Both the position numbers and the translations under genes were made by a program. Below the pieces are notes generated by a model. The model was given only the letters and a program-made list of their open reading frames with translations. It ran no database searches and was not told the DNA's origin. A DNA stretch of 64,000 bases. Source: Nitrosopumilus sp. (lineage in GTDB: Archaea > Thermoproteota > Nitrososphaeria > Nitrososphaerales > Nitrosopumilaceae). The stretch lies in the NCBI GenBank assembly GCA_965218695.1, contig OZ244651.1:544001-608000 (forward strand), given 5' to 3'. Shown here piece by piece: positions 1 to 64,000 of the stretch (positions are counted from its first letter, which is position 1; each line of letters opens with the position of its first letter).

Positions 1-1
1 C

Positions 2-1288
2 AGGTATAACAACGCGTTCATACTCAGTGCCGACCTGAACAAGACCGACGGCGTGGCGGTCTCGACTGCCAGCCTGGCTCCCGTGTCGCGGCAGCTTGCC
101 CCGTCAGACGAGACCGTGGGAACACACATCGACATGCCAGGGGCCGTCCATGTCGGGGAGGAATTCCCGTACACGATACACGAGATAAACCGCAACGGCG
201 TGCCATTGAGGCTGGCAGACGCGCCGGACGTCTCGTTCGGGGACGGCGTCATGGAAGGCAGCAACGGCAGGCTTGTGGCAGAAGACGCGGACGGAACGGG
301 AACAATCACCGTGCTTGGCATCGGGGAGCCGGTAACTGAGACAATCGAGGTCGGCAAAAACGAGTTGGGTTTTGAAGCCAAACTTGGAGACGGTGACCAC
401 AGGGTGGGCGAGACGATCCTGTTGAGGCTGATATCTGACGTGGCCGGCGTGGATTACACCATAGCGTGGCCCTCATGGCTGGAGCACGAGGAGGTAGGCG
501 ACAACGAGTACGAAATCACGCCCACGCGCGAGAACAACGGCACCATAAACATCGTCGGCGAAAAGAAGGGGTACGGGGCAGAGAGCCATACCGTAAACAT
601 ATCTGCCATCCACGAGGTGAATCTCAGCGCCCGTGCCGAAGCAGGCGGCAGGTCACTTGCGCTGGAGCCGGAGATAACCAACATAGAGAACAATGAAGCA
701 GTCGATCCGCCATACACGGGCCCGCCGATATACGTGAGGGTCGCGTACCCGATAGAGCATGTAGCGGCCAGCGGGGACGGGTACCTGTTCACGGGCGTGG
801 AGGTTGACGGCGAGTTTGAAGCCGTGCCTGAATTTGAGCAATATGTGGACAAGGACGCGCGCATAATAGGACAGTACGAGCGCCAGATATTCATCAACAT
901 AGCCGATGCCGAAGGCAGCGGCGTGTTCAGGACAGGCGACGAGGTCCACATACGCGCGCCCGACAAGCCGAAACTGCTCTTCTTCATTACCGACGTGTTC
1001 AGCCATTGGGAAGGGGATCTTTCAGGGCGCGGGCCAGGGCCGTTTGTCCTGATTGCTGAAAAAGACCTGTACTCCAGGGCAGTATACATTGAGGACCACA
1101 GTGTCTGGATGGGCCTGGTGTTTGTCGCAGTCGCGGCCATCGTGGTACTTTCGGTGTTCCGCAAGTCGGACCGCCTGAAATGGATGTTCGGCGGCATGTC
1201 CGGGCTGGGCAAGATGAAGCCAAAGAAGAAAGAAAAGAAACCCGCGAAGGAATCAGGCGTGACGGACGGGGCAAATGATGGGTCATGA
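2..1288 (+). CDS. Membrane-anchored surface protein, 5'-partial (frame open to the window edge)
   Basis: Acidic, beta-rich extracellular-type sequence. C-terminal TM (WMGLVFVAVAAIVVLSVF) is followed by a Lys-rich tail. The frame has no stop back to position 2. ATGA overlap with the next gene. Confidence 0.8.
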   Translation, partial: RYNNAFILSADLNKTDGVAVSTASLAPVSRQLAPSDETVGTHIDMPGAVHVGEEFPYTIHEINRNGVPLRLADAPDVSFGDGVMEGSNGRLVAEDADGTGTITVLGIGEPVTETIEVGKNELGFEAKLGDGDHRVGETILLRLISDVAGVDYTIAWPSWLEHEEVGDNEYEITPTRENNGTINIVGEKKGYGAESHTVNISAIHEVNLSARAEAGGRSLALEPEITNIENNEAVDPPYTGPPIYVRVAYPIEHVAASGDGYLFTGVEVDGEFEAVPEFEQYVDKDARIIGQYERQIFINIADAEGSGVFRTGDEVHIRAPDKPKLLFFITDVFSHWEGDLSGRGPGPFVLIAEKDLYSRAVYIEDHSVWMGLVFVAVAAIVVLSVFRKSDRLKWMFGGMSGLGKMKPKKKEKKPAKESGVTDGANDGS

Positions 1289-4287
1289 GGATCATACTTG
1301 GCATGATGATCTGCCTGCTTGCATGCGCGCTTGCAGCAGTCCCGCCTGACTCGTACGCCCAGTCTGCAAACCCGTCTATTTCCTGCAGCGTCAGCGTGCG
1401 CGCATATGCTGCCCCCGCGCCGCTGTATGACGGCGGGGACCGTCGCAACCCGGACAAGTCGTTGTACCCTGGTGATGCCACGCACTACATGTTCGTGTAC
1501 AGGGGCTCGGATACCTGCCTCAGGTTCAAGGTCAACGAACTGAACTCGTACGGCGCGATAGGCGTGATTGACCACGACGTGGCCAAGGCGGTAAACGTGA
1601 CAGGTTTGGAACCAGACGAGTTGCGGCCCGAACTGAGCCCGAGGACACACAGCCACAGCACGTTTGATGTCGCAGTTGAATGGGTTGAGCCCGACGATGA
1701 CGATGAGAGACCGCACGCCGAATGGAGCACGCCGTCGGCCTCGCACAACAGCCACCAAGATCCAGTGTACGAGGACGACGAATCCGTGGAGGCATTCAAG
1801 GAGTTCGTGAAAGACAGATGCACGTCAGACAGGCTGTATGCGGGCTGCGCGTGGGGGCATATCGAAGTAGATACGGACGCCACGGGAAAGGTCTGCCTGC
1901 ACGAGCACATGAAAAGCGAGGGAATACGCATCCCGGACGGCGTGCCTGACGAGTGCAAGAACCGCAACTACATCACGATGTCAGTCGAGGGAGACGGGAA
2001 GAGGTGCAAAAAAAACGATAAGGGGGGATGGGACTGCGACAGGTTTACCCGCACGAATACGGCGAATATAAGGCTCAACGTGCTGGAACCGAACCTGGAA
2101 TTCGAGCTCTCCAAGCCGCCATTATACGACGCGTACGGCTTTGAGACGCAGAACCTGGACGGCACGTACTACCTGCAGGATCCGGTGCATGTCGTGCACC
2201 ATCCTGTCTTCAAATGGAAAGATGATCGTGGAGGCACCATAAAATTCAAGGTATACAGGCACTGGTGCCCTGATGACGGGAAATGCTCGGATTATGAAAA
2301 AAGGACGCAGTTGCCGATAGCCAAGACTTTTGACTGCACGTCTGACAGGTGCAACGAGGCATTTTCAATTACAGGGTTGACTGACACGATATGGAGCCTG
2401 GGAAACGGCGACGGCCAGACTGCGTACAGCGCCACCGATTCCTCGTGGCTCGGCCTGCACGGCCTGCAGTACAGGATAGAGGTGTACAACATCGAATACA
2501 CCGAAGAACGCATACTGAACGCGACCGAAGGCCACACCACCGCAAAAGCAGTCGTGTTTGATCCGGTGTTTGAATCCACCACGTACCCGGTGCTGGCAGA
2601 CGACGAGAAGTACGGCCACGAGAACCGTTTCGCGCTAGCCTCGTGGTACGGCGGCTCCTGGGGCGGCGGAAAGGATGATGCCAACATGACAGAGCCGTAC
2701 GAGTACCGCCGAGCCAGGATGGATGCGGCGTACGGCGCGCTGGCCGGGTACAATCCTGCCAACAGGACTACGCTGTCGTGGAACCTGACATGGAGTGAGG
2801 CGCCCAGGACGCCGGCGCACGTGCTGCAGGAGTACGGCGCGCCAGACTATCCGGACGTGTCGTTTCATTCCACGTCACACCCGCTGCGTCCGGGCCTGGT
2901 ACCGCTGTCAGAAGACGGGGCCGCGATGTGGCCAAAAACCGGCTATGGCAGGATATTCTTTGACTTTCCGGACATTTCACAGTACAGGCTTGGCGAGCCG
3001 GGATCCCGTTACGCGAATGCCACAGCCTACGTCTATACGATGGCGCGCGACTTTGCCTCCGAGCCATACAGGACAACTGCATCCGGCGTGTATACGTATC
3101 CGGATACGCTGTTCCACCAACGCGTGACCATACGATCGGTGGATTCGGAAGGAAACATCAAGCCGCTTGGAATATCGTTGGCATCCGAGCCGCGCCTGGA
3201 CTTGGGCGCCATACCGCTTGCAGATTACATACACGAGAAGGTGTTGCATGACACCGGCGACGCTGGATTTGCCGACTTGGCAGTACACGACACGTACCCG
3301 ATGGGACTTGACATACAGGCAGAAACTGGGTACATTGATGCCAAGGTAAGGCGTACCGCGTCACTGTTTACCACGTTCAGCCACGACGCGCACCAGGGAG
3401 ACGAGGCGCCAGGCGGGCCCGGGCCGCTTTTGCCGCCAGTGCTGTCTTTGCCTGGAATAAACGAGACGTCCACGCTGTTCGGGCCCGTCATATCGCCCGG
3501 CGTGACCGGGCCGAACCCGACAGAAACGGGCCTGAGCGGGCTGTTCGGGTTCTTGTCGCAGGTGGTGGGGATCACGGAGACCATGTCAGACGTGCTGCCA
3601 GACGAGATAGACCGGATAGTCCCGGAAGGATTCAAGCCTGACGGGAACGCGACGGCTTTGCCTCGGCCCGACATCAAGGCGCTCATGGCGTTCCAGAACA
3701 TGAGCAGGGAACTCGGGTACGCTGGCCTGGCCGAGGTGACCGAAGGGACGTACATGGCGTACCCGGACACGTCCAGGATGAACTTTCCGCTGTCGTACGG
3801 CTTGACCATGCCGTCGCCACTCAACGTCACACTCGGCACGGATTTCTATTCCCAGAACATCGACCACCGTTTAGGTGTGACAGAAGGCGGCCTGAACATA
3901 ACCATAAACACGGACAAGGACAACGTCCTGCTGGCAGAACGCACAGGCGACGTCCTGTCCATATCATACGACGAGAATTTTGGCGCGATGCTCGGCGTGG
4001 TAATCGACGGGAGCAACCATGGCAAGCCTGCCGGGTCAATCGGCGCGTGCGCCTGGGGATGCGACATATACGTCGGGTGGGGTAGCCTGGACGTCACTGC
4101 ATACAACAAGTGGGGCGGGGAAGCAAAATATTTCGCAGAAGAATTGGAGGAGCCGCCGCCTGCTGCAATACCAGACACGACATACGATGAGTGGCTTTGG
4201 GTGCTGGCACTGGTGGCTTTTGGCATACTGGCGTACAGGCTTGTCCACAACAGACTTGCAAACGGCATATGGTCTATCCGGGCCTGA
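1285..4287 (+). CDS. Large secreted, C-terminally anchored surface protein (1000 aa)
   Basis: N-terminal signal peptide (MRIILGMMICLLACALAA), Cys-rich N-terminal half, Pro/Gly linker, many N-x-S/T sequons, C-terminal TM (WLWVLALVAFGILAY). Confidence 0.85.
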   Translation: MRIILGMMICLLACALAAVPPDSYAQSANPSISCSVSVRAYAAPAPLYDGGDRRNPDKSLYPGDATHYMFVYRGSDTCLRFKVNELNSYGAIGVIDHDVAKAVNVTGLEPDELRPELSPRTHSHSTFDVAVEWVEPDDDDERPHAEWSTPSASHNSHQDPVYEDDESVEAFKEFVKDRCTSDRLYAGCAWGHIEVDTDATGKVCLHEHMKSEGIRIPDGVPDECKNRNYITMSVEGDGKRCKKNDKGGWDCDRFTRTNTANIRLNVLEPNLEFELSKPPLYDAYGFETQNLDGTYYLQDPVHVVHHPVFKWKDDRGGTIKFKVYRHWCPDDGKCSDYEKRTQLPIAKTFDCTSDRCNEAFSITGLTDTIWSLGNGDGQTAYSATDSSWLGLHGLQYRIEVYNIEYTEERILNATEGHTTAKAVVFDPVFESTTYPVLADDEKYGHENRFALASWYGGSWGGGKDDANMTEPYEYRRARMDAAYGALAGYNPANRTTLSWNLTWSEAPRTPAHVLQEYGAPDYPDVSFHSTSHPLRPGLVPLSEDGAAMWPKTGYGRIFFDFPDISQYRLGEPGSRYANATAYVYTMARDFASEPYRTTASGVYTYPDTLFHQRVTIRSVDSEGNIKPLGISLASEPRLDLGAIPLADYIHEKVLHDTGDAGFADLAVHDTYPMGLDIQAETGYIDAKVRRTASLFTTFSHDAHQGDEAPGGPGPLLPPVLSLPGINETSTLFGPVISPGVTGPNPTETGLSGLFGFLSQVVGITETMSDVLPDEIDRIVPEGFKPDGNATALPRPDIKALMAFQNMSRELGYAGLAEVTEGTYMAYPDTSRMNFPLSYGLTMPSPLNVTLGTDFYSQNIDHRLGVTEGGLNITINTDKDNVLLAERTGDVLSISYDENFGAMLGVVIDGSNHGKPAGSIGACAWGCDIYVGWGSLDVTAYNKWGGEAKYFAEELEEPPPAAIPDTTYDEWLWVLALVAFGILAYRLVHNRLANGIWSIRA

Positions 4288-4820: not shown

Positions 4821-6767
4821 TCACGTCAAAGTTCCGACTATTTCCTCAAGGAATGGCAGCGCGACGCATATTATCGTGCCAAACACGGCAAGCATGCATA
4901 CGTGCATGCTGTGCTTCATGGTAAAGTACGCTATCTTGGAGACCAGGAAACCGATCAGTACGGAGCACTCCACTATGAGAAAGCTCGACTGCTTCTTGAT
5001 CTCTTCGGTCTGCTCTAGCGTAGGGAAATTGATCGGCATCGCCTCCAGCCCCTCAAGCTCTCCTGTTATACTGCTTGTCATCTCGGAAGTTATGAGCAGC
5101 ATCCCCACCATGAGCAGCGGTATGACATAGCCCATTATTATAGATCCCCGAAGCGACGCTATCATTTCGCGCCTGGACTCGACGTACTCCTTGATAAAGT
5201 TGGCAAACGCCTGCAGCGAATGGGTGTCGCCGCCCCCGCTCTCCTGCACCTGCGATAGCACGAAGAACAGTATACGGGACAGCCAGGACGTGGTGCGGGC
5301 CGACTCTGCCGCGGCCGCCAATGACTTGCCAAACATCATCTGTTTTGATATGTCGCGCAATACCGGGCTCAACGCGTCATTCTTGTCCTTGTTTTTTGCC
5401 CTAACATTAACTGCCTCGCGTATCTCCATGCCTTCCAGGCGGCTGTCGGTGACGAATTGCGCGAATGCCGGCAACGCATTGTCCATCCTGAACGTGTCAG
5501 AAAAATGCCTTCTTGCCATGAATGCGTTGGCCCCGCCCCAGACAGCTACTGCGACCCCCAGGACTCCCCAGAGCGGCACGCCTGCAATCAGCGTGACCGG
5601 GACCGTCAGGGCCGCCATTACCAACGGCGGACGATACAGCGGGACAGAGTTGTGCGTGCGCGGCTGCTTTCCGTCCAGCGACATCAGCAGCACGACGATG
5701 ATTATAGGTAGTATTAACATCACCATTATCGTCATGGAGACGGCGTCTTTTCCTGTGGCGACAAACGTGGTTGCAAGCGCCAGGATTGGCATGACTGCCA
5801 TGATCATCAGCACCAGCTGGGCGATCCCGTTTGCCTCAGACGTGTAGTTTTTCACGCTGTTGCGCATGACGCGGAACGCGGATTCGGTGGCCGCGGCCAT
5901 GGTGCTTGCCGTGTTGGTTCCGCTGGTGGTGTAGGCGGCTGCGTAGTTTGCCACAATCTCCTTGAAGGATTCGTTCGGGTGGGTCTCTGCCACCTTGCGG
6001 AGTGCGGTTGTGTGCGACATGGCCATGTACTCGACGTTGCGCTGGAAGATCAACGCGTCCTGGCGCAGCACGGGAAACAGCGTCGTCTTGGATCTCGTTA
6101 TGTGGGTGATGAACTCGTAGAATGACACGCCGACCTTTTCCATTATGCTGGCGCACGCGATGAATACTGGTAATTCATGGCCGATTGCCGATTTTCTCTG
6201 CGACTTTGCGTTCTTTAGTTGGATCAAACCGCTGAACAGCACGCCGGCCGGAACCGCACACAGGCCCAGAAACCCGGGGTGGAAGAGTACGGCAAGCGCG
6301 ACTGCCACCGCGACTGACGGCGGCACCGATAGTATGGCGTGCATTATGCCGTGCCGGACAATCCTCATGGAGTCGTTGGCGTGGCCGGACTCGAATATCG
6401 CGCTGCGCACCTTTTCTGCCATGTATTTTTCCAGTCTGCGTATCGGGGTGATTGACATGAAGGGCTTCAGCATGGTCATGGCGCGGTCCGCAGTCACGGG
6501 CTTGGCCTCAAGCAGGGCGCCGAACCTGCCCTGCAGCACGGCCACGCCGGATCCCGTGACCTGCTGCTTCTTTTCCTTTTTTGCCGTCCTGCTGCGGAGC
6601 AGCGGCCTGATTCTCTCGTGAAACACATCCGCGACGTCTATCTGCGTGAGTACCACGAGTATGATGAATGCCGGTATGGATAATGCAAACAGGCCGGACT
6701 GGCCGAGCGCCATAAGCACGCCCATTATACCGAGCATTCCCAACAAAGAGGTCACGGGCAGGCGCAT
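4821..6767 (-). CDS. Type II secretion system F family / type IV pilus platform protein (TadB-TadC/ArlJ-like, two T2SSF domains)
   Basis: Polytopic membrane protein with two typical cytoplasmic domains (IGHELPVFIACASIM...GVS and MDNALPAFAQFVTDSRLEGM...ESGGG), each followed by TM helices. Divergent from a pilin gene. Confidence 0.85.
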   Translation of the reverse strand: MRLPVTSLLGMLGIMGVLMALGQSGLFALSIPAFIILVVLTQIDVADVFHERIRPLLRSRTAKKEKKQQVTGSGVAVLQGRFGALLEAKPVTADRAMTMLKPFMSITPIRRLEKYMAEKVRSAIFESGHANDSMRIVRHGIMHAILSVPPSVAVAVALAVLFHPGFLGLCAVPAGVLFSGLIQLKNAKSQRKSAIGHELPVFIACASIMEKVGVSFYEFITHITRSKTTLFPVLRQDALIFQRNVEYMAMSHTTALRKVAETHPNESFKEIVANYAAAYTTSGTNTASTMAAATESAFRVMRNSVKNYTSEANGIAQLVLMIMAVMPILALATTFVATGKDAVSMTIMVMLILPIIIVVLLMSLDGKQPRTHNSVPLYRPPLVMAALTVPVTLIAGVPLWGVLGVAVAVWGGANAFMARRHFSDTFRMDNALPAFAQFVTDSRLEGMEIREAVNVRAKNKDKNDALSPVLRDISKQMMFGKSLAAAAESARTTSWLSRILFFVLSQVQESGGGDTHSLQAFANFIKEYVESRREMIASLRGSIIMGYVIPLLMVGMLLITSEMTSSITGELEGLEAMPINFPTLEQTEEIKKQSSFLIVECSVLIGFLVSKIAYFTMKHSMHVCMLAVFGTIICVALPFLEEIVGTLT

Positions 6768-6846: not shown

Positions 6847-7476
6847 ATGAAGTCCACAATAACGAAGTCCATGACTACAAGATCCCTAACGAGGAAGAGG
6901 AGGGCCGTATCGGCAATCGTCGGAATCATGCTCGGCCTCGGCCTTACTGCCGTGGCAGCAGGCGGACTATACGTGATGACGTCTGACCTTTCTGACAGCG
7001 CGGTATCCATAACGTCTGTAGAGATACAGAATGCCAGGGCGTACAATACCGGAAATGTAGCATATGTGTCATTGAGTATCAAGAATACTGGTACAGATGC
7101 AGCATCGGATTTGAGTGCAGTAGTATTGCTTGCATGTAATGGCGAGGCCGCCGCAAAGGCCACACTCACGGATGCTACACTCAAGGCTGCAACCACAGAC
7201 TGCGTCGCAGCCCAATACGCCAGTCCTCCAACACAATCTACAGCCCCAGGTACGCTAGAATCGATACCCATAGGTGCAGAAATAGATGATTTGGCACCAG
7301 GCGGAACTGCCAGCATATCAGGTGGTGTCGCACTCACAGATTCTGCCAGTACGACTGCGCGAGACTCAGGGGATAAAATTGCGTTTGCCGTAGGACAAGA
7401 ATACCTCATAGAGATATCAGGTACGACAGCAGCAAACGAACCCATTATTCAGACTGCGACAGTCAGAGTACGATAA
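6847..7476 (+). CDS. Archaeal type IV pilin
   Basis: Class III signal peptide RKRRA|VSAIVGIMLGLGLTAVAAGGLY; SIKNTG motif; C-terminal GQEYLIEISG strand typical of archaeal pilins. Confidence 0.88.
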   Translation: MKSTITKSMTTRSLTRKRRAVSAIVGIMLGLGLTAVAAGGLYVMTSDLSDSAVSITSVEIQNARAYNTGNVAYVSLSIKNTGTDAASDLSAVVLLACNGEAAAKATLTDATLKAATTDCVAAQYASPPTQSTAPGTLESIPIGAEIDDLAPGGTASISGGVALTDSASTTARDSGDKIAFAVGQEYLIEISGTTAANEPIIQTATVRVR

Positions 7477-7539: not shown

Positions 7540-8262
7540 ATGCCCACCGGGCATATGAAACGCATGCCACGCAACAATACCGCAGGCCTGAAGCGCACCA
7601 TTGCCGATGCGTGGAACGCAGAATATGATTCCGGCAAATATGCCGGCGAACCCCCGGTGGCGTTTGCAGGCGAGATAGCCGACTTTCTGGCCGAAAGGTC
7701 CAGACACCGAGACGGACGGGGCCTGTACGTGGGGTGCGGGAACGGCCGAAACTACGTCATGCTGTCCAAAGCCGGACTGGATATCACCGGACTTGACGTG
7801 TCTGCAGTCGGGCTAAGACAGATAGCAGAGAAGGAACCGTGGCTGGCGCCCAGGCTGGCATGCTGCGACTTTCTGGATTATGCCGGCGGGCCGTTCCAAT
7901 ACTTGATCTCCATACAGGCGTTCCAGCACGGCACAAGAACAACGGCAGAGGCGTACTTTCAAAAGACCGCGCGGGTGCTGGTTCCTGGCGGGATACTCTT
8001 TTTGCGCGTGAACGCCTCTGACACCGACGTGCTGCATCCGCACCGCGTCACGGAGGAGTCAAACGGTGGTTTCACGGTTCTGTACGAGGACGGCCCGAAG
8101 CGCGGGCTGCACGTGCATTTTTTTTCGTTGGGAGAACTGGAGACACTCATCAGTAACAACGGCATGCGCATAGTGGGCGCGCCCAAAAAAGTCACGGCTG
8201 GTCGCCAAAGTAAATGCGGCACGTGGGTGCAATGGGAAATTGTAGCAGTGAGGGATAAGTGA
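7540..8262 (+). CDS. Class I SAM-dependent methyltransferase
   Basis: GLYVGCGNGRN motif I, GLDVS, VLVPGG. Start codon uncertain (7540, 7555 or 7564). Confidence 0.88.
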   Translation: MPTGHMKRMPRNNTAGLKRTIADAWNAEYDSGKYAGEPPVAFAGEIADFLAERSRHRDGRGLYVGCGNGRNYVMLSKAGLDITGLDVSAVGLRQIAEKEPWLAPRLACCDFLDYAGGPFQYLISIQAFQHGTRTTAEAYFQKTARVLVPGGILFLRVNASDTDVLHPHRVTEESNGGFTVLYEDGPKRGLHVHFFSLGELETLISNNGMRIVGAPKKVTAGRQSKCGTWVQWEIVAVRDK

Positions 8263-8777: not shown

Positions 8778-9335
8778 CTAGTAAATCATCAGGTCCTTCT
8801 CTTCCAAAAGCGCGTGCAGGTTATGCACGGAGCGGAACACGTCATCCTCTGTCTTGCCGCCGGTGCATACAAGCTTGCCGGAGGCAAACAGCAGTATGAC
8901 TGTTTTTGGATCCACTATCCTGTGTATGAGCCCTGGGAACTGCTCGGGCTCGTACATGCTCCTTGGCAGCGTGCGCGCGGCATTTTCAAGGTGGATTTTT
9001 CCGCCCAGGTCGATTGCGGCCACGATGTTCTGGACAGTGACTGTTGCCTCGTTTCGTATGCTGATGCCGCCTTTCCTGAGTTTTTTCACCACGGTGTTTA
9101 CCGCGGTAATTGCCAGTTCTTCAGACTTGGCACCCGTGCAGACCATCTTGCCGGTCCGGAATACCAGCGTGGCAGTCTTTGGCACCGCGAGCCTGAATAC
9201 CAGTCCTGGGAACTGTTCCGGGTGGTACTCGGTGCCAGGAAACCTTTCCTGGATGTCGGGCAGATTCATCTCCTGGTCAACCGAAGCCGACGCCACCACG
9301 TTCTCTATCCTAATCACGGGCTTGGTCTGCGGCAT
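8778..9335 (-). CDS. tbp: TATA-box binding protein
   Basis: IENVVAS...YHPEQFPGLVFRL...GKMVCTGAKS and second repeat QNIVA...YEPEQFPGLI...SGKLVCTG. The MPQTKP N-terminus is Nitrosopumilus-like. Confidence 0.98.
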   Translation of the reverse strand: MPQTKPVIRIENVVASASVDQEMNLPDIQERFPGTEYHPEQFPGLVFRLAVPKTATLVFRTGKMVCTGAKSEELAITAVNTVVKKLRKGGISIRNEATVTVQNIVAAIDLGGKIHLENAARTLPRSMYEPEQFPGLIHRIVDPKTVILLFASGKLVCTGGKTEDDVFRSVHNLHALLEEKDLMIY

Positions 9336-9476
9336 GGTTTGGGTTTTTCTGCCTGCCATATATCAGTGATGGGGCAAGCCAGCCATCTACTGACACGTAC
9401 GTGAACGAGGAGGCAATATTTCTTAGCGGACGGATGTCTTTTTGTAATAATTCGGCGAGGGGTGCGACAGGACGCG

Positions 9477-9674: not shown

Positions 9675-9857
9675 GTGTTTGCTATACGGGGTCGGGTTAA
9701 AACGATTTCCGACAACTCAGGCATTATGTGCAAGCTGGATATACCTGTCCGGTTAGTACTATTGTGGATGGCGTCATGCAACGCCTGTATAATGGATAAT
9801 TGGGGTAGTTGAAGGCTCATGAAAACCCGTTTTTAACAGAATCGTCCACGGTGTTTC

Positions 9858-10630: not shown

Positions 10631-10686
10631 TGTTCCTATTCAGCGTAGAAACACAACTTAAAACATGCGCACGCGTCCACCACATA

Positions 10687-15659: not shown

Positions 15660-15660
15660 A

Positions 15661-49188: not shown

Positions 49189-49275
49189 CGCCCCAATACA
49201 AGTTCTGTTCAAAATTAGGGATCTTGGGTAAAACCCACCAACCAATATGTTGGAGTGCCACAATTGAGTAGGGTT

Positions 49276-54205: not shown

Positions 54206-54280
54206 AGATCAGTAGCACAGTCTGGACAGTGCAGGCGCCTTCTGAGTGCCAGGTCGCCGGTTCGAATCCGGCCGGGCCCG
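54206..54280 (+). tRNA. tRNA-Arg(UCU)-like gene with a defective acceptor stem (probable pseudo-tRNA)
   Basis: D arm GCAC/GTGC, anticodon arm GGCGC-CT TCT GA-GTGCC and T arm GCCGG-TTCGAAT-CCGGC are intact. The 5' strand AGATCAG mispairs at three positions with the 3' strand CGGGCCC. Confidence 0.8.
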
Positions 54281-54312: not shown

Positions 54313-55050
54313 TTGGTATTTTCGGCAAAAACCCACGGATCAGAGGACACCAAGGCCATAATAACATCAATCTCAACATTAGTCGAGGAGGCTACGTTCG
54401 TGGCAACCCCCGAAGGCATCACGTTTCGTGGAATGGATCCGTCGCATGTGGCGCTGGTTGACGTGAACTGGCCAAATTCGGCGTTTGAGCAGTATGACTG
54501 CAAAGACGAGGTAAAGTTCGGCGTCAGGATAGACGAACTGGCAAAGATCATCAAGCGGGTCGACAAGAAAGACGACATCGAGATCAGCATAGATAACAAC
54601 GTGTTGCTTTTGACTGTAGGCAGGAGCAAGAAATACAAGATTCGCCTGATAGAGAGCTCTACAAACGACACGCCGTTGCCAAAAATCCCATACGATTCCA
54701 AGATAGTTCTGAGGCACGGCAAGTTCGAGAAGATTCTTGGCGACGTGAACGTGGTGTCGGAATACATTGCAACGTATGCCGAAGGGTCAAAATGTTCGTT
54801 TTCAGGCAAGGGTGACAGTGGCGAGGTCGTGATCGAGGTGGATGCAGACGAGACAGAAGAAATAAGCGCCAAGAATCCAGGCGAGGGAACGTACAGCCTG
54901 GAATACCTTACGCCGATGGTAAAGGCGGTTGGCGGTGCGGGTGATAATGTGGTGTGCGAGTTTTCGGAGGCAAAGCCGCTGCGCGTGGAATTTCCAATAG
55001 CAGGAACCGGAAGAATACACTTCTACCTGGCTCCCAAAGTCAAGACCTGA
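54313..55050 (+). CDS. pcn: DNA polymerase sliding clamp PCNA
   Basis: ISTLVEEATF...GMDPSHVALV...YSLEYL...PL......G.IHFYLAP; TTG start 27 nt after TTTTATG. Confidence 0.97.
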   Translation: MVFSAKTHGSEDTKAIITSISTLVEEATFVATPEGITFRGMDPSHVALVDVNWPNSAFEQYDCKDEVKFGVRIDELAKIIKRVDKKDDIEISIDNNVLLLTVGRSKKYKIRLIESSTNDTPLPKIPYDSKIVLRHGKFEKILGDVNVVSEYIATYAEGSKCSFSGKGDSGEVVIEVDADETEEISAKNPGEGTYSLEYLTPMVKAVGGAGDNVVCEFSEAKPLRVEFPIAGTGRIHFYLAPKVKT

Positions 55051-57036: not shown

Positions 57037-57711
57037 ATGCTGCAGGAACTGGTATTCTTCAAGAACACGTCCACATTGGACGAAACGCTGTACACCAGCC
57101 CGGCAGGAAAACTGTCAATACGGCAGACAATGATCCTCGGGATCGGGTGCGGCCTGGTCCTGATGGCCGCCATGTCTGCATACGAGGCAGACAACGATTT
57201 CATGGACGCGGTGTATTACCTGCCGTTTCTGGTGATCCCGCTGGCAATCGGCCTGTACAAGCCCAAGGTCCTGACGACAGACGAGTTGCTTTATTCAATC
57301 ATCATGTTTTTCATAAACGGATCCTCGGTCAAGCAGATTTCCAAGCCGAAAAAAACCAAAGGCAGGGGCGGATCCAGGGCGGCCAAAAACCCCAGCAGGC
57401 GCATGGGCTACCATTCATTGGAGCGGGAATACGTGCAAAAGGAGAAGACCAGGGTCGTCCCGGTGGCCGACTTGGGCAAGCCGACCAGGCTCAAGCTCAT
57501 GATACAAAAGCCCGGCGGCGGGGCCTTCAAGAACCATTTCGTCTCGATATACCTGGACGGAGTGCGCGTGACTGCAATGACAACAGACAGCGCAGGAGAA
57601 GTCGTGGCACTCGTGACGCCTGGAACTGAAGGCAATCATTCACTAAAAGTCATGGCGAAAGGATACGACGAACCCGTCATAGACGGCGACATCAGATTCA
57701 GGCGAGGATAG
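57037..57711 (+). CDS. PrgI/VirB3-like membrane protein with a C-terminal Ig-like domain
   Basis: LDETL....GKLSIRQTMILG followed by two TMs and K..V...DE (PrgI-like layout); basic linker; C-terminal VSIYLDG...TTDSAG beta-sandwich. Confidence 0.6.
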   Translation: MLQELVFFKNTSTLDETLYTSPAGKLSIRQTMILGIGCGLVLMAAMSAYEADNDFMDAVYYLPFLVIPLAIGLYKPKVLTTDELLYSIIMFFINGSSVKQISKPKKTKGRGGSRAAKNPSRRMGYHSLEREYVQKEKTRVVPVADLGKPTRLKLMIQKPGGGAFKNHFVSIYLDGVRVTAMTTDSAGEVVALVTPGTEGNHSLKVMAKGYDEPVIDGDIRFRRG

Positions 57712-58591: not shown

Positions 58592-58834
58592 TGAATGAAT
58601 CAAAATTTGCCGCATTGACAGACATAATGAAGGGATTGTTGGACGATGCCACGGCCATCTAGGGCAAGGCCGGACGACTGTTGTTTCATTCTGGATTCAC
58701 CGATCCGGAATTTGTCCGGGGCGCACAGATGTTCCTGGCAAAACATGAAAGTGGATTCATCCGGGAAGACATGGAACAACGGACCGCCAAACTGTGGGAA
58801 TCCATCAAGGCGACGCGGCCCAAAAAACTGGCTA
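58591..58834 (+). pseudogene. Operon gene 4, with an in-frame TAG (58660) and truncated by IS630
   Basis: MNESKFAALTDIMKGLLDDATAI*GKAGRLLFHSG... continues in frame up to the IS end. Confidence 0.55.
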
Positions 58835-59922
58835 TAGTGTCAATCAAAAGTCTTCTACGTCAGTCTGAGCGTAACATTTTTTGATCACTCCGCACTACCG
58901 CCCACATGGATGAAAAAAGCAAAAAGCTGTTAATCCAGGCCTACAAGAAAGAGAAGAGGGGAACCATAAAGGACAGGATCCACGCCGTCTGCATGGTCAA
59001 GATCAGGGGGCTGGGCGTATCCGAGGTGGCATCACTGTGCTTTTGCGACCCGCACACTGTCACAAGCTGGGTCCGGCATTTTGATAGCGAGGGTCTTGCA
59101 GGCCTGGAAGACAGGCCCCGCCCGGGCAGGCCGCCCAAGGTCGGGCTTGAGAAGATTGCGGGGCTTGCAGCAAGGACTGGCAGCATCACAACTCCAAAGC
59201 AGCTCAAAGAAAACATACGCAAAGAATTCAAGGTGACATACCACATTTCAAACGTCACAAAGATAATGCACAGGCTTGGCCTGTCTGCCAAGACGGTCCA
59301 GCGCATCCACGTCAACAGGCCAGAGATCAAAAAGATCAGGCAGTGGCAGCGCAACGCCAAAAGGCGGATTTCACGCCTGCAAGAGAAGGGTTTTCTCCCA
59401 GTCGTCTTTGACGAGGCCATATTTGTAGACGATCCGGCATCGGGCGTAAAGTATTGGTCGCCAGAAGGCGAGCCGATTGTCACGACATACAAGGGACGGC
59501 ACGGAAAGGTGGTGGCATACGGTTCCATTGTAACAGACGGCAGGCAGTTCTTCAGGACGCATGAAAAATTTGACAAGGAGACGGTCCTGCAGTATCTCAA
59601 GGATCTGGTCAGGCATTTTGGAAAGGTGGTCGTAATCATGGATAATGCGCCACAACACAAGTCAAGGATCGTGATGAAATTTCTAAAGGAAAATCCCGAC
59701 ATCAAGGTCATGTGGCTTCCAGCTGCAACGCCCGAGCTTAGCGGCGTGGAGGAGTACTGGCACCAGGCAAAACGTAACGTGCTGGTGTCCGAGTACTATG
59801 CCACGATAGTGCAGATGCGCAACGCGATGTCGGAGTATTTCAGGACCGCGCGTCCAAGGATTGACGTAATGGAGTTCATCTGTAGAAAGTCCCTAAATGT
59901 AAAAAACTTTTGATCGACACTA
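58835..59922 (+). mobile_element. IS630-family element (transposase 58906-59913)
   Basis: TIR TAGTGTC(A/G)ATCAAAAGT with TA flanks; RPGRP, FDEA, MDNAPQH, PELSGVEEYW. Confidence 0.93.
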
Positions 59923-60810
59923 TACGATTCGAGCATAACTACTGAGGTTGCAGACGACTATGCATGTCGCATGCCGTTTAGGATGATCGCAGACCGCATG
60001 TCGCGGTACGGAATTACACTCTCCTCGGGCACGACGCACAACATAATGCGCAGGCTGGGAGCGTCGCCGGGTACCCCGGCAGCAGCCATTGCCGCCATGA
60101 TACGCAAGGCTAGGATACTGCACGCCGACGAGACATCGATTCACCTAAACGGCCGCAACGTCTGGGTGTGGATACTGCACGATCCGCTGACCGGGCACGC
60201 GCTGTACGTGATACGGGACAGCCGGGGGGCAAAGGTTCTGAAAGAAGCGCTTGGGGGTTGGGACGGCACGTTAGTGTGCGACGGCTGGACGGCGTACGGA
60301 AAATACCGCGTCCAGCGTGTTGCTGGTCGCACATAATACGCGAGGCCAGGGACATCTGCAACCGCAATCCGGACTGCCCAGGCGCGCGCAACGTCCTGAA
60401 GCACCTGCGCATAATCTATGACTATGCCAGAAGGGCAAGCAGGAAACGCTCGCGCTCTCTCCGGGACAACGCGTCTGCCATGCTGACGTCATGCATCGAA
60501 AAGATCGTTGCAAGGTACGCCGACGATCCAATATTGGAAAAATTCATGGTCAAGATCAGCAATGCTGGCAGCGACCTGTTCCGGTTCGTGCTGAACCCAA
60601 AGATCCCGCCTACAAACAATGCTGCAGAACGCGGGTTGCGCGAGATAGTCGTGCACAGAAAGATACGGGGCAGCATAAGGGCAGAGGAGACGATGACGTG
60701 GATGGCGAATTTCTTTTCATGCGTAATGACATGGAAAAACAAGAAATTGGATTACTTGGCGGAGATTGCAAAATACGCCTAAAAATGAGTTAAACCACGT
60801 GAACACTTAC
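59923..60810 (+). mobile_element. 5'-truncated, frameshifted second copy of the 25812-28890 IS66
   Basis: Near-identical protein and DNA to 27393-28250; right end ...CCACGTGAACACTTAC; net +2 nt indel near 60316. Confidence 0.93.
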
Positions 60811-62004
60811 AATTATTCTAATGCGCGTGCTGCACACTAGGCAAGTAGCTGTGCCTGAGATCACGATCAGAAAAGTATGGAATTGTACAGGATTGATACG
60901 CGTGCACTGTCTTGCAGTGTATACGCGTTTGCTAAATACTCAAAAAACACGGATAAGCATGGAACAAGGTGATGTGATAGACTAACACCTGATTACGAAT
61001 GACTGCAAAGGCCTCTGGTGAATGGAGCTATCCAAGCTGCCAAGTTACCGTAGGCCGAGTCAAAGGATTCTAGTCCCATGGACGCAGATTCCTTACGTAT
61101 TTCACGAAAAACGACGGCAAAAGGCCTCTGGGAGGGACCCCTACAATACCCCTCCCTCTTTTTTCATGAGTGAATGTCTGGCTAATTCCAACGTAGCCAG
61201 TCATTCATTTTGTTCCCCCCCCGTGACCTTTTCCGGTTCCGGCGGCCGGATCCCTCGTGGTTGCAACCATCACATGCCACAACGGCTTTGAATCTTGAAC
61301 GTTGGGCAACCGAATTGTGACAAGGTGCTTGATGCGGCGTGACCGTCACGACAATATCTGCCCAAAACATTCCTTGACGGCCAAAATCATACTCCCCTGC
61401 AGGAACCGGTGTCAGCAGATCATCGAGAACACAACACCGGAGCAGCTTGGCTGCGTGCTAGAGGCGCTAAAAGCGCCGGCAAGACAGGTTAGGCAGCCAC
61501 AGGTCGTGGCAGACGACGCGCGCGCAGAGACCCTGACAGGATCGGAATGCCGGTTCGTGGGCAACCTGCCAAGCGGCAAGGTCGTGCCGGAGAGAAACGC
61601 GGACTGACAAGAGTGGACCGATCCTCCGGCATCCCTACATCGGGGAGCCAAAAAGGATCGGAAACTACAGTGGAAGCGGGTCTAAAGGGATTCGGCCTGT
61701 ATTGTTACCTTTTTTAGGTTCCATTGTGCATGTAAAACCATCTGTGGTTAGTCACCGACTCGTTCCGCCCATTCACTTCGACAGAGCATTCTTCGCCAAG
61801 GCAATTAGGCTGCTCAGGATGCTTGGAAGCAACCGCAGCAGGAAGGCGGAGCCACTACAGTAAATTTCCTAATAGATGCTGCAAGAAAGCACCTTGCGAG
61901 CTCCGGCCAATTCCGGCAGGAACCACACCAAGTACATGATCCTGTTGAAAGGCAGCACCATGGACGTGTACTCATATGCATGCCATAGCAGGCGCCCAGA
62001 CCAT

Positions 62005-63114
62005 AGAACTGATTCGTAATTAGCCCATTCGTCGTAGGCGGCAACCTGGGGAAGACAGTAAGATCAAAATATCGTCCGATCCAGCAGATTGCATGTTATC
62101 GTATGCCAAACTGTCAGGAAACGCCAGGCGTTTCAAGACCATCATGGGAATGTCACTCCAGGAATTCGATTTGTTGCTCGCAAAAGTGGAGAAGACACAC
62201 CCCGAGACGGAGAGGGATAGGCTCTCCAAGAGGCCCCGAAAGCGCGCAATCGGGGCCGGGCGCAGGTTCGCGCTTGACCTGCACGGCCGCGTGATGCTCC
62301 TCCTGTTCTACTACCGGACGTATGTCACACAGGACGTGGCAGCCGAGGTCTTCGGAGTCGGCCAGGCCACGGTGTCGCGCTCCATAGACCAGATCGCCCC
62401 CGTGGTCAGGCAGTGCATCCCGCTACCAGCCAGGATCCACGACAGGGCAAAGAGGGCCTCGACTATTGAGGAGCTTGAGGAGATCCTTCCCGGCCTCCGG
62501 TGCCTCATTGACGCCTCCGAGCAGCAGGTACAGAGGCCCAAGCGGAAGGACATGGAAAAGTCCCACTATTCTGGCAAGGCCGGGAGGCACACGGCCAAGG
62601 TACAGTACGCCGTGAACGCAAACGGCCTGATCGTCCACAACACGAGGCACTCCCCGGGACGAGTCCACGACGTCAGGGTGTACCGGATGAAGCACCCGAC
62701 GTTTCCATCCGGCCTGCCGTCCCGGGACGGGCCTGACGGCAAGGGGGAGAAGGCAAGGGTGCGGGCCTATGTGGACAGGGGTTACCCCGGGGCGCAGAAG
62801 ATGTACGAAGGGGTGGAAGTGCTGGCGCCGATCAGGAAAAAGCCCGGAAAAAAGCTCACTGACGCAGAAAAGGCATCCAACAAGGCGCACTCCCGGATCC
62901 GCGTCTACGTGGAGCACGCCATCCGAAAAGTCAAGACGTGGCGGATAATGGGTGACAGGTACCGGAACCCGCTGAAAAAGTACGACCGGATCAACGATGT
63001 CGTCTGCGGGCTGGTAAACCAAAGGCTGCTGTGGCTGGCAGAACGGGCAGCCTGACGGAAATGGGCCTGAAAAGTAGGGCGAACAGGCTTGGAAAATAAT
63101 AACGGATCAGGTCT
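62005..63114 (+). mobile_element. IS5-family (DDE_Tnp_4 type) element (transposase 62093-63055)
   Basis: Imperfect TIR AGA(A/C)CTGAT(T/C)CGT(A/T)ATTA, 3-bp TSD CAT; clear paralogue of the 38805 element. Confidence 0.92.
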
Positions 63115-63579
63115 CATGCGTTGCCAGATTTGCCCACATTACCGCAATTGATAAAACCAATTGCCACCGTTCCATGCTCTACAACAGTTTGCACCTATTG
63201 ATGGCCGAGAACCTGAAACGCGTGGCCGGCGGGGTGAGAAAAAGACGCTGATGCCGACTGCCTGCTAGCGTTGGCCCACAGCCACGCGTGTCACGCGTGC
63301 AACATAATGGCCAACAGCACCGATTACGATGATGGCACAAGGGGAGGAGAATGTCCTTAGCAGCTCAATATGTCAGCAACGGCACGTGTGATTGGGGGAG
63401 CGCGTCGGGCACCGGTCCCGGCATGCTCAAGATCCAAACCATCCGGGCACAAAGATGGCTTCTGACTATGGATCGCTACATTTGAGCAGAGTGTCCCTTT
63501 GCATCCAAACGTACGCGACATGGTGAAACATTCTTGCCGTAGCAACATGGCTGCCCGGACATCTTCTTAGACTTCGAAA

Positions 63580-64000
63580 TTACTTGATAACCTTCACGTA
63601 TCCGAACCTCTCGCTTTTGCTAGGCCGTTCCAGACATTTGCACTGATTGTCGAGTATGCTGTCATCTAGTGGCTTCGGCCGGTTTTTGTTCTGCTCATAC
63701 GCACGCTCTACATTGTCGAAAAACACCGCGTTTACTTTGGCATCATATAACCATCCACGACTTACATGCGCATGGCGTATCTTACGGGTCAGGTTGGTGT
63801 CATCCACCACCACGTCCTTGCCACCTTCCAGCGCTTCTGTTATCAAAATTTTCTCGATCTTCCTCTCCATTTTGGGCGAGTCTATACTTGGGCTAGAATA
63901 TCTGTCAAGTATCTCCTGACGATACACGCTGTCCCACGTCCTGATATCGTCCAAAGACACGTGGACATGGTTCGGGAATTCTTGTTTTGCCAACGTGGAC
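63580..64000 (-). CDS. P-loop kinase (AAA_33 / polynucleotide-kinase-like), 5'-partial
   Basis: STLAK (end of Walker A) at the window edge, VSLDDIR, VVDDTNL...R, N..R lid, LERPS..E.F. Confidence 0.8.
   Translation of the reverse strand, partial: STLAKQEFPNHVHVSLDDIRTWDSVYRQEILDRYSSPSIDSPKMERKIEKILITEALEGGKDVVVDDTNLTRKIRHAHVSRGWLYDAKVNAVFFDNVERAYEQNKNRPKPLDDSILDNQCKCLERPSKSERFGYVKVIK

What the first reader, a model, noticed from the sequence alone, without database searches (positions are those of the whole stretch)
1..64000. Candidate giant mobile element (megaplasmid or ICE) of an ammonia-oxidising archaeon carrying its own transcription, replication, repair and translation genes
Seen: TBP, divergent TFB, PCNA, Mre11-Rad50, a second Rad50, aIF-1A, L15e, tRNA-Arg and pheA each sit as isolated genes. 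They are mixed with ORFan microgenes, orphan DNA methyltransferases, pilus and conjugation-type genes and about 13 IS. Known: archaeal mre11-rad50 often cluster with nurA/herA, which are absent here. Inference: this mix fits a large extrachromosomal or integrative element that supplements host core machinery. I know of no described conjugative megaplasmid in Nitrosopumilaceae.
Basis: partly seen in the sequence, partly recalled or inferred. Interest (0 to 1): 0.85.

Follow-up and report, generated by a model that had tools for sequence, protein, structure and literature searches.

The report
Decayed giant conjugative island, not plasmid
The window is the middle of a roughly 175-kb foreign island in the chromosome of an ammonia-oxidising archaeon, built on a known type of archaeal conjugative element, carrying spare copies of replication, repair and transcription genes, and now crippled by insertion sequences.

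Summary
The window is C1:544001-608000 of a 2.46-Mb contig that also carries the 16S rRNA gene and amoA. It is therefore not a plasmid. It lies inside a ~175-kb island (C1 ~479.4-654.8 kb) that is missing from the matching site of the closest relative G002, which shows median 93% protein identity.

The island backbone matches thaumarchaeal integrative-conjugative elements described in 2018-2019. It has a VirB4-like ATPase, a FlaI-like ATPase, TadC, a pilin and TFIIB homologues. Related islands sit at two other sites.

Every "core" gene tested in the window is an extra copy. The native Mre11-Rad50 sits in a canonical NurA-HerA-Mre11-Rad50 cluster elsewhere. Island PCNA and PolB are 62-74% identical to all genus homologues. 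The island also carries intein-bearing PolB and RNR, Tmk and RNase HII.

The element looks immobilised:
- VirB4 is split by IS.
- No integrase, VirD4, Cdc6, ParB or att repeats were found.

The IS density is typical of the genome, 21.6% repeats. I rate it a new variant of a known kind.

The parts
1..1288 (+). C-terminal 428 codons of a 1652-aa surface protein with a C-terminal membrane anchor. The ORF starts at C1:540330, left of the window.
   Evidence: It is 83.5% identical over 1663 aa to the island B homologue. No Pfam hit.
1285..4287 (+). 1000-aa protein with an N-terminal hydrophobic segment and a C-terminal anchor. Probably a surface or adhesin-like part of the pilus module.
   Evidence: no family, no Walker A. 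Island B homologue at 74% and 46%.
4821..6767 (-). TadC/T2SSF-type polytopic membrane platform protein of a type IV pilus or conjugation apparatus.
   Evidence: Pfam T2SSF E=1.3e-11. 78% identical to island B and 82% to the G002 island.
6847..7476 (+). Pilin-like protein.
   Evidence: Archaeal Pilin_N E=0.0017, below cut-off. One N-terminal TM segment. 88% identical to the G002 island homologue.
7540..8262 (+). SAM-dependent methyltransferase.
   Evidence: The TadC-pilin-MTase-TBP order is conserved in the G002 island.
8778..9359 (-). TBP, the fourth copy in the genome.
   Evidence: Pfam TBP E=6e-55. Other copies are 83%, 80% and 73% identical. The genus normally has 1-6.
9809..10630 (+). ICE-type TFB/TFIIB homologue, abutting the MmeI gene.
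   Evidence: Pfam TFIIB E=8.8e-24. 61% identical to the IS-split TFB at C1:645399, 63% to the G002 island TFB, and 29% to chromosomal TFBs.
10630..13344 (+). MmeI-family restriction-modification enzyme with all five MmeI domains.
14032..15663 (.). IS66-family IS.
   Evidence: up to 26 other copies.
17159..17650 (+). pheA fragment: prephenate dehydratase domain only, 163 aa, ending at an IS.
   Evidence: The other copy is 41% identical, at C1:2224386.
17648..19326 (.). IS5/DDE_Tnp_4 IS with its transposase in two ORFs.
19553..21547 (-). Two ORFs of unknown function in a low-GC patch (0.37).
   Evidence: no family.
21647..22862 (.). IS (DDE_Tnp_1/DUF772).
   Evidence: up to 30 other copies.
23197..23601 (-). 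aIF-1A, second full-length copy.
   Evidence: 93% nt identity to the native copy at C1:1510856, against 95% between native and G002.
23884..24555 (-). Ribosomal protein L15e, second full-length copy. The first ~60 codons of the ORF come from the end of the neighbouring IS.
   Evidence: 91% nt identity to the native copy at C1:65456.
24378..28902 (.). Three IS: one multi-copy 343-aa ORF type with no Pfam hit, and two IS66.
29192..31837 (-). Type IIG-like restriction-modification enzyme (N6_Mtase + specificity domain) in a low-GC patch (0.31-0.43).
32434..37875 (.). One IS3 and two DDE_Tnp_1 IS.
38025..41536 (-). Rad50-like SMC ATPase split by an IS. C part 38025-38888, IS 38800-39980, N part 39962-41536.
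   Evidence: 31-44% identical to the two Rad50s; best PADLOC model LmuB, E=4e-23.
42370..44538 (+). Polytopic membrane protein with a Gly-rich tail. VirB6-like by topology and position only.
   Evidence: no family. 40% identical to the island B homologue and 46-52% to the G002 island homologue.
45145..45885 (-). ABC-type ATPase.
   Evidence: 94% identical to a G002 gene in another island-like region.
46167..47294 (+). Conserved backbone protein of unknown function.
   Evidence: 49% identical to island B and 49% to the G002 island. No family.
48355..50124 (.). Two DNA methyltransferases: one N6_N4 type matched only at its C end, one D12/Dam type.
50417..54077 (+). Mre11-Rad50 pair, a second copy without HerA or NurA.
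   Evidence: 70% and 54% identical to the native pair. Tree. The native cluster has HerA and NurA.
54206..54280 (+). tRNA-Arg(UCU)-like sequence with a degenerate 5' acceptor strand. Possibly the scar of an old attachment site.
   Evidence: ARAGORN negative.
54313..55050 (+). PCNA, a second and divergent copy.
57037..57711 (+). Two-TM protein, PrgI/VirB3-like (weak).
   Evidence: PrgI E=8e-4, below cut-off. 67% identical to island B.
58831..63055 (.). IS630, an IS66 fragment and an IS5-type IS.

Best explanation
The window is the central third of a ~175-kb genomic island (C1 ~479.4-654.8 kb) integrated in the chromosome of a Nitrosopumilaceae ammonia oxidiser.

The backbone is a thaumarchaeal-type integrative-conjugative element. 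It comprises:
- a type-IV-pilus-like mating apparatus (FlaI-like ATPase, TadC platform, pilin, giant anchored surface proteins);
- a VirB4-like DNA-translocation ATPase;
- a VirB6-like membrane protein and a VirB3/PrgI-like protein;
- element-type TFIIB homologues, which (inferred) steer the host RNA polymerase to element promoters.

Cargo is interleaved with this backbone:
- restriction-modification enzymes and methyltransferases;
- extra, mostly deeply diverged copies of informational genes: TBP, PCNA, Mre11-Rad50, a Rad50-like ATPase, aIF-1A and L15e in the window; intein-bearing PolB and RNR, thymidylate kinase and RNase HII just outside it.

The element is now a decaying, immobilised resident. 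IS elements, which have swamped the whole genome, split its VirB4, one TFB and the Rad50-like gene. No integrase, coupling protein, initiator, partition gene or attachment repeat was found.

Shown: location, island status, gene content, paralogy and the disruptions. Inferred: past conjugative transfer, the role of the TFBs, and whether the cargo functions.
For: Chromosomal location. The window is C1:544001-608000. The 16S gene is at C1:1476923 and amoA at C1:111936.

Island status.
- 1517 of 1719 non-repeat ORFs of C1 have a G002 homologue, at median 93% identity.
- Inside C1:479.4-654.8 kb, of 111 non-repeat ORFs, 54 have no homologue, 47 have one under 85%, and only 10 have one at 85% or more.
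- The flanking genes at 479.2 kb and 698.1 kb are neighbours in G002.
- Codon fit is lower in the island than in conserved genes: 0.284 against 0.350, p=7e-9.

ICE backbone.
- VirB4-like ATPase: Pfam AAA_10 and TraG P-loop; NCBIfam VirB4 and TraC models, E down to 6e-29.
- T2SSE ATPase; TadC.
- Three TFIIB-domain genes.
- The order is collinear with island B (C1 ~698.4-764.5 kb), which ends in a 608-aa tyrosine recombinase.

Mobility of the family.
- G002 holds an 8.5-kb remnant of island B at the same site.
- G002 also holds a ~160-kb related island at another site, and that site is empty in G000.
- The VirB4 type occurs in 18 of 81 genus genomes and in named Nitrosopumilus, Nitrosarchaeum, Nitrosotenuis and Nitrosotalea assemblies.

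Extra copies.
- All 8 core-type genes tested have another copy in C1. PolB and RNR do too.
- The other Mre11 groups with G002's, on short branches, and sits beside HerA and NurA.
- Island PCNA, together with two metagenomic proteins, forms a clade (100/97) outside the 27 cellular PCNAs sampled.

Local linkage. Two short-read contigs of run X1, 9337 and 9466 nt long, cover window 42001-58860 without a difference. They join backbone genes to Mre11-Rad50-PCNA. That run may be the window's own sample.

Precedent. ICEs with this gene set, up to 140 kb, and an integrase-less immobilised one, are described in PMC6563490 and PMC5797428.
Against: - No integrase lies in island A. Only 4 matches exist in the genome, none between 479 and 655 kb.
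- No VirD4 (PF02534) was found anywhere in the genome.
- No ParB or Cdc6 lies in the islands.
- The border zones share no repeat of 13 nt or more. The island's ends therefore rest on synteny alone.
- The VirB6-, VirB3- and pilin-like calls are weak or rest on topology only.
- The cargo diverges unevenly. aIF-1A and L15e are 91-93% nt identical to the native copies, whereas PCNA, TBP and Mre11 are 73-79%.
- There are low-GC patches and a tRNA fragment between Rad50 and PCNA.
- Most of the informational cargo is absent from island B and from the G002 island. The 175 kb may therefore be an accretion rather than one transferable unit.
- A 44-kb chromosomal segment between islands A and B is inverted relative to G002. 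A 0.6-kb piece at A's right end matches the G002 remnant of B. The present borders are thus partly products of rearrangement.
- The left junction is supported only by this assembly.
Confidence: 0.75

Rival explanations
1. Accretion hot spot. A modest ICE, like the 66-kb island B, became immobilised. The informational cargo (PolB, PCNA, RNR, Mre11-Rad50, aIF-1A, L15e, TBP) then accumulated in place by separate insertions, IS-mediated capture and recombination. On this view there was never a 175-kb transferable element.
For: - Divergence of the cargo is uneven.
- IS flank most cargo blocks.
- A tRNA fragment sits between Rad50 and PCNA.
- Low-GC restriction-modification patches are present.
- In island B the pilin gene is followed directly by the VirB6-like gene. 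In island A, 35 kb intervene.
- Of the informational cargo, only TBP and RNR recur in the G002 island.
Against: - Runs from two other studies hold pieces about 90-97% identical to both backbone genes and Mre11-Rad50 of this stretch. Linkage in those runs was not shown.
- The TadC-pilin-MTase-TBP order is conserved in the G002 island.
- Known thaumarchaeal ICEs reach 140 kb and carry nested elements.
Confidence: 0.35
2. Free megaplasmid or second chromosome.
For: The gene mix resembles large archaeal secondary replicons (recalled from general knowledge, not tested).
Against: - The window is internal to the 2.46-Mb contig that carries rRNA and amoA.
- Conserved chromosomal genes flank the island.
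- No Cdc6/Orc1 or ParB was found in it.
Confidence: 0.02
3. Ordinary but IS-shuffled symbiont chromosome. The core genes here are the organism's own and no element is involved.
For: - The IS density of the window (25%) equals the genome's (21.6%).
- Multiple TBPs are normal in the genus.
Against: - Every tested core gene has another copy, and that other copy is the one close to the relative's.
- The native Mre11-Rad50 keeps HerA and NurA.
- The region is missing from G002's matching site.
Confidence: 0.04
4. Assembly chimera. DNA of a second, related archaeon was joined into the contig at IS copies.
For: - The genome is 21.6% repeats.
- Island paralogues resemble those of a distant congener.
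- Contamination is estimated at 1.45%.
Against: - The island holds only a few dozen cellular-type genes among element genes, not a syntenic chromosome piece.
- Island B's place is confirmed by its remnant at the same site in G002.
- Short-read contigs reproduce 16.9 kb of the window exactly, up to the IS.
Confidence: 0.04

Closest known systems
Thaumarchaeal integrative-conjugative elements (NCAV2-E1/E2, NitIsl-E3, NitEve-E6, NitGar-E3, NitVie-E3, NitNCS1-E3; Krupovic et al. 2019, PMC6563490; Abby et al. 2018, PMC5797428)
   Same: - Integrated in the chromosome.
- Carries a VirB4-like ATPase, TadC, a FlaI-type ATPase, pilin, and VirB6- and VirB3-like membrane proteins.
- Every element carries TFIIB homologues.
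- Rich in DNA methyltransferases, nucleases and IS insertions.
- Sizes reach 140 kb.
- An integrase-less, vertically inherited 'immobilised' ICE is already described.
   Different: - About 175 kb.
- No VirD4, ParB or Cdc6 was found.
- VirB4 is IS-split.
- The cargo includes cellular-type PolB (73% identical to the host's, with an intein), PCNA, an intein-bearing RNR, Mre11-Rad50, TBP, aIF-1A and L15e.
- The words TBP, PCNA, Rad50 and 'ribonucleotide reductase' do not occur in the main text of PMC6563490.
- The one PolB reported there is casposon-like.
- Its supplementary gene tables could not be opened.
Conjugative plasmids of Sulfolobales (pNOB8 type) and archaeal DNA-import systems (Ced)
   Same: VirB4/TrbE-type ATPase without a recognisable relaxase. 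The ATPase also gives a weak match to CedB (E=9e-11).
   Different: Those are free plasmids or host systems of Thermoprotei. No sequence-level membership was tested beyond the NCBIfam hits. What is known of these systems is recalled.
Large archaeal secondary replicons with duplicated informational genes (haloarchaeal megaplasmids/minichromosomes; Borgs of Methanoperedens)
   Same: Extra TBP/TFB and replication genes on an accessory DNA (recalled from general knowledge).
   Different: Here the DNA is integrated and has no initiator or partition genes. No homology to those replicons was tested.

Membership tests
Thaumarchaeal ICE (as defined in PMC6563490 / PMC5797428) | VirB4/TrbE-like ATPase | tested here: met
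   Pfam AAA_10, DUF87 and TraG P-loop; NCBIfam VirB4 and TraC models, E down to 6e-29. The gene lies left of the window at C1:529639-530895 and is split by IS from its N-terminal part at 533496-534137. Intact relatives are 601-669 aa.
Thaumarchaeal ICE | VirD4/TraG coupling ATPase (present in 'most' described ICEs) | tested here: not met
   PF02534 gives no match in the whole genome. PF12846 finds only one ATPase per island.
Thaumarchaeal ICE | TadC platform, FlaI/PilT-type ATPase, pilins | tested here: met
   T2SSF E=1.3e-11. T2SSE E=4.5e-20 at C1:534780-536354. The pilin match is weak only (E=0.0017).
Thaumarchaeal ICE | VirB6- and VirB3-like membrane proteins | tested here: inconclusive
   A 722-aa protein with 7 predicted hydrophobic segments and no family hit. 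A 2-TM protein with PrgI E=8e-4, below cut-off. Both are conserved in island B and in the G002 island.
Thaumarchaeal ICE | TFIIB homologue on the element | tested here: met
   Window 9809-10630, C1:536495-538531 and the IS-split C1:645399-646052.
Thaumarchaeal ICE | ParB-like gene next to TFIIB ('most elements') | tested here: not met
   PF02195 matches only C1:2342278 and C4:2773. The gene after the window TFB is an MmeI enzyme.
Thaumarchaeal ICE | Integrase and flanking attachment-site repeats | tested here: not met
   No PF00589 match lies in C1:479-655 kb. The border zones share no repeat of 13 nt or more. Island B does have a tyrosine recombinase at its right border.
Thaumarchaeal ICE | Absent from the same site in a close relative | tested here: met
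   Whole-genome comparison with G002.
Megaplasmid / secondary replicon | Separate replicon with its own initiator and partition genes | tested here: not met
   The window is internal to the 2.46-Mb contig. The single Cdc6_C match is at C1:1999660. No ParB lies in the island.
Canonical archaeal NurA-HerA-Mre11-Rad50 repair cluster | Four genes adjacent | tested here: not met
   The window pair has methyltransferases upstream and a tRNA fragment plus PCNA downstream. The native pair at C1:52557-56226 is followed by HerA (56693) and NurA (57925).

The most novel reading that the evidence does not exclude
The island descends from a lineage of very large conjugative replicons of Nitrosopumilaceae that keep their own partial replisome and transcription kit: PolB, PCNA, RNR, Tmk, RNase HII, Mre11-Rad50, TBP and TFBs. 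The separate PCNA clade (island copy, one 93% relative and one 71% relative from metagenomes) would mark free or differently integrated members still at large. That would be a mini-chromosome-like mobile element in ammonia-oxidising archaea.
Probability: 0.2. Interest if true: 0.75.

Novelty: new variant of a known kind. Interest (0 to 1): 0.5.

Why it matters
It shows that conjugative elements of ammonia-oxidising archaea can grow to about 175 kb. It also shows they can carry second, deeply diverged copies of cellular replication, repair, transcription and even translation genes.

Such copies inflate 'contamination' estimates and can mislead marker-gene phylogenies of these archaea.

The pair of genomes, G000 and G002, offers a natural time series of ICE decay. 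It includes one island kept at 66 kb in one genome and reduced to 8.5 kb in the other, one ~160-kb island with an empty site in the other genome, and a chromosome that is 22% IS.

If the cargo is expressed, it would be a test case for how a mobile element's PCNA, PolB and TBP/TFB coexist with the host's.

Tried and rejected
Results that led nowhere:
- ARAGORN on the window found no tRNA.
- The 907-aa protein next to the IS-split TFB (C1:646563-649286) is conserved in island B and in G002. It had no hit in Pfam, NCBIfam, PDB sequences (best E=0.73) or the protein Atlas.
- PADLOC gave only generic SMC/LmuB and methyltransferase matches, and nothing for the low-GC ORFs, the 257-aa ORF or the 217-aa ORF upstream of the Rad50-like gene.
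- Scans of viral contigs and metagenome contigs with the island PCNA found no relative.
- No RNA holder was listed for the Mre11-Rad50-PCNA stretch. This says nothing about expression.
- Depth from contigs cannot give copy number. I did not compare island and chromosome coverage.
- DNA searches of the island flanks against G002 and G018 returned almost only IS matches. That is why I fetched G002 whole.
- I tried to explain the inversion between islands A and B by a shared IS at the two junctions and found none (first comparison). The order of the rearrangements stays open.
- Two-copy TBP next to integrases looked like a lead. It lost force because one of those TBP types is widespread in the genus.
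- Literature: searches found no paper describing an ICE in Nitrosopumilus or a sponge-type relative. One search failed, so absence from print is not established.
- PMC11410982 (passages read) had nothing relevant.
- Supplementary tables of PMC6563490, which list ICE gene contents, were not opened. They could show TBP, PCNA or RNR cargo that the main text does not mention.
- Structure prediction, complex prediction and the search of protein representatives were not used.
Full report
WHERE THE WINDOW LIES. The window is bases 544001-608000 of contig C1 (2,459,686 bases). The assembly is 2.63 Mb in 9 contigs, with GC 52.8% and completeness 99.99%. The same contig carries the only SSU rRNA match (C1:1476923-1478393) and amoA (C1:111936). 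A free megaplasmid is therefore excluded, as far as the assembly can be trusted.

WHAT IS IN THE WINDOW.
- Informational genes: TBP, a divergent TFB, aIF-1A, L15e and PCNA.
- Repair genes: Mre11-Rad50, and a Rad50-like gene cut in two by an IS.
- A truncated pheA.
- Restriction and modification: a complete MmeI-type enzyme abutting the TFB gene, a low-GC type IIG enzyme, and two DNA methyltransferases.
- Pilus and conjugation-type genes: a TadC/T2SSF membrane protein, a weak pilin match and a weak PrgI-like match.
- Mobile DNA: 13-14 IS of the IS66, IS5, IS3, IS4-like and IS630 families, plus one unclassified type.

The tRNA reported by Rfam (54206-54280, anticodon UCU) has three mismatched acceptor pairs. 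ARAGORN misses it, and it has no other copy in the genome. The intact tRNA-Arg(TCT) is at C1:339040.

THE IS LOAD IS NOT LOCAL. 25% of the window's bases have three or more other copies. The same is true of 21.6% of all of C1. IS density is a property of the genome and not a mark of an element. The published maximum that I saw for thaumarchaea is 83 IS per genome (PMC6563490, passage).

ARE THE CORE GENES SPARE COPIES? Yes. All eight tested have another copy in C1:

| Gene | Other copies in C1 |
|---|---|
| TBP | three more, at 83%, 80% and 73% |
| TFB | many |
| aIF-1A | 96% aa |
| L15e | 93% aa |
| Mre11 | 70% |
| Rad50 | 54% |
| PCNA | 69% |
| pheA | 41% |

- The other Mre11 is sister to that of the closest relative, on very short branches. 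The window copy sits on a longer branch.
- The other Mre11-Rad50 pair is followed by HerA and NurA, the canonical cluster.
- Island PCNA is 64-72% identical to the full-length PCNAs of the genus. 76 of 81 genomes had a match, and a few short fragments score higher.
- Among 1778 database relatives, one is 93% identical and the rest of the 120 listed are 71% or less.
- In a tree, the island copy and two metagenomic proteins form a clade (100/97) outside the 27 cellular PCNAs used.
- TBP needs caution. 61 of 61 genus genomes have 1-6 TBP matches, so extra TBPs are normal here.

THE ISLAND. I fetched the closest relative, G002 (one contig, 2,216,668 bases), and compared all ORFs.
- 1517 of 1719 non-repeat ORFs of C1 have a G002 homologue, at median 93% identity.
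- Two stretches stand out: C1 ~479.4-654.8 kb (island A, with the window in its middle) and ~698.4-764.5 kb (island B).
- In island A, my ORF caller gives 149 ORFs, of which 38 are repeats. Of the other 111, 54 have no G002 homologue, 47 have one under 85%, and 10 have one at 85% or more.
- Most of those 10 map to G002's own islands, or are aIF-1A and L15e.
- Genes left of A (to 479,179) and genes right of the segment between A and B (from 698,116) are direct neighbours in G002.
- The 44-kb segment between the islands is inverted relative to G002.
- Codon fit is lower in island A than in conserved genes (0.284 against 0.350, Mann-Whitney p=7e-9).

THE BACKBONE. Islands A and B share a collinear set of genes at 40-85% identity:
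- small ORFs;
- an ATPase that matches AAA_10, the TraG P-loop and VirB4/TraC models;
- a T2SSE/FlaI-type ATPase;
- a 1652-aa and a 1000-aa anchored surface protein (the window's first ORF is the tail of the former);
- TadC and a pilin;
- a polytopic Gly-rich membrane protein, a 375-aa protein and the PrgI-like protein;
- an Mrr-domain protein.

Island B ends in a 608-aa tyrosine recombinase directly beside conserved chromosome. TFIIB-domain genes occur three times in A and at least once in B.

This is the gene set described for thaumarchaeal ICEs: VirB4, VirB6, VirB3, TadC, FlaI/PilT and pilins, always with TFIIB. Their median size is 64 kb and the maximum 140 kb (PMC6563490, section 12 and passages). 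An integrase-less immobilised ICE is also described (PMC5797428, passages).

THE FAMILY HAS MOVED.
- G002 holds an 8.5-kb remnant of island B at the same site, with fragments 87-96% identical to B genes.
- G002 also holds a ~160-kb related island at 1.048-1.209 Mb. Its flanks are adjacent in G000 at C1:256.8-259.0 kb.
- That island repeats the order TadC-pilin-methyltransferase-TBP and carries an intein-bearing RNR 72% identical to island A's.
- The VirB4 type was found in 18 of 81 genus genomes, one of them with 14 matches.
- It was also found in public assemblies titled Nitrosopumilus, Nitrosarchaeum, Nitrosotenuis and Nitrosotalea. 372 of 594 candidate stretches were confirmed, and the 80 best were kept.

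CARGO BEYOND THE WINDOW.

| Side | Gene | Detail |
|---|---|---|
| Right | RNR with an intein | C1:624518-628210; other copy 60%, without the intein |
| Right | PolB with an intein | C1:633966-637454; other copy 73%; 62-74% to the long genus matches, 77 of 81 genomes matched |
| Right | Thymidylate kinase, a TnpB, an IS-split TFB | |
| Left | RNase HII, an ATP-grasp ligase, a helicase, a methylase, a TFIIB-domain 678-aa protein | |

STATE OF THE ELEMENT.
- The VirB4-like gene is cut by IS in both islands; intact relatives are 601-669 aa.
- No integrase lies in A.
- No VirD4 was found in the genome.
- The single Cdc6 and the ParB matches lie elsewhere.
- The borders share no repeat of 13 nt or more.

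I read island A as immobilised and decaying.

ONE ELEMENT OR AN ACCRETION? The evidence points both ways.
- aIF-1A and L15e are full-length and 91-93% nt identical to the native copies. Native against G002 is 95%. PCNA, TBP and Mre11 are 73-79%.
- With the low-GC patches, the tRNA fragment and the IS flanks, this points to cargo gathered at different times.
- Whether it was gathered before or after the element stopped moving is open, so I keep this as the main rival (0.35).

READS.
- The Mre11-Rad50-PCNA stretch is held by four runs of one study and, in part, by runs of two other studies.
- In run X1, two short-read contigs cover window 42001-49402 and 49395-58860 without a difference. They link backbone genes to the cargo. 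That run may be the window's own sample.
- Runs X5 and X6 hold pieces with 3-65 differences in 500-1100 bases, over backbone genes and over Mre11 and Rad50. Related variants therefore exist elsewhere, but linkage there was not shown.

VERDICT. The plasmid reading is rejected. The ICE reading is supported, but for a larger, degraded element of an already described kind. Its new aspects are its size, its host group, and its cargo of cellular-type replisome, repair and translation paralogues.

Noticed in passing
whole contig C1 (the window is typical): Massive IS expansion. 21.6% of the 2.46-Mb contig consists of sequence with three or more other copies at 85% identity or more. The relative G002 shares the same IS families at 85-96% identity. 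This far exceeds the 83 IS per genome given as the thaumarchaeal maximum in PMC6563490.
   Followed up: partly
C1:624518-628210 and C1:633966-637454 (16-30 kb right of the window): Second copies of ribonucleotide reductase and family-B DNA polymerase, each with an intein/LAGLIDADG insert. The native copies lack these inserts. The native PolBs of about 80 genus genomes are about 860 aa, against 1162 aa here.
   Followed up: partly
window 54206-54280: A tRNA-Arg(UCU)-like sequence. Its D, anticodon and T arms and its 3' acceptor strand are intact, but its 5' acceptor strand does not pair. It may be the scar of an old tRNA attachment site between Rad50 and PCNA.
   Followed up: partly
window 38025-41536: A third Rad50-like SMC ATPase, cut by an IS5-type element. 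Its best PADLOC model is Lamassu LmuB, but it is 31-44% identical to the two Rad50s. No Mre11-like partner was found next to it.
   Followed up: partly
window 23884-24555: The L15e ORF is extended at its 5' end by about 60 codons that belong to the end of a multi-copy IS. The same 57-59 residues recur at 15 other places in C1.
   Followed up: partly
window 19553-21547 and 29192-31837: Two patches of GC 0.31-0.43 in a 0.53 background. One holds two ORFs with no family hit, the other a type IIG restriction-modification enzyme.
   Followed up: no
C1:654.8-698.4 kb: A 44-kb conserved chromosomal segment between islands A and B is inverted relative to G002. A 0.6-kb piece at the right end of island A (C1:654102-654691) matches the left end of G002's remnant of island B.
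   Followed up: partly
G002 (L038-L148) 1,048-1,209 kb; G000 C1:256.8-259.0 kb: The relative carries its own ~160-kb related island, with two integrases, TFB, TadC, pilin, TBP and an intein-bearing RNR. The insertion site of that island is empty in G000.
   Followed up: partly
C1:52557-58725: The native repair cluster NurA-HerA-Mre11-Rad50 is intact here. Yet a Mre11 match at E<=1e-20 was found in only 7 of 18 other genus genomes searched, several of them 99% complete.
   Followed up: no
window 9809-13344: The element-type TFB gene ends exactly where the MmeI-family restriction-modification gene starts (shared base 10630). This suggests one operon. Published thaumarchaeal ICEs pair TFIIB with ParB instead.
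   Followed up: no
contigs C4 and C9: Small contigs carry a ParB match (C4:2773) and the best tyrosine-integrase match of the genome (C9:5211). They might be further elements or unplaced repeats.
   Followed up: no
G072 (genome search handle): Another 2.4-Mb single-contig genome of the genus has 14 matches to the VirB4-like ATPase, several with internal stops. This suggests many ICE copies and remnants.
   Followed up: no
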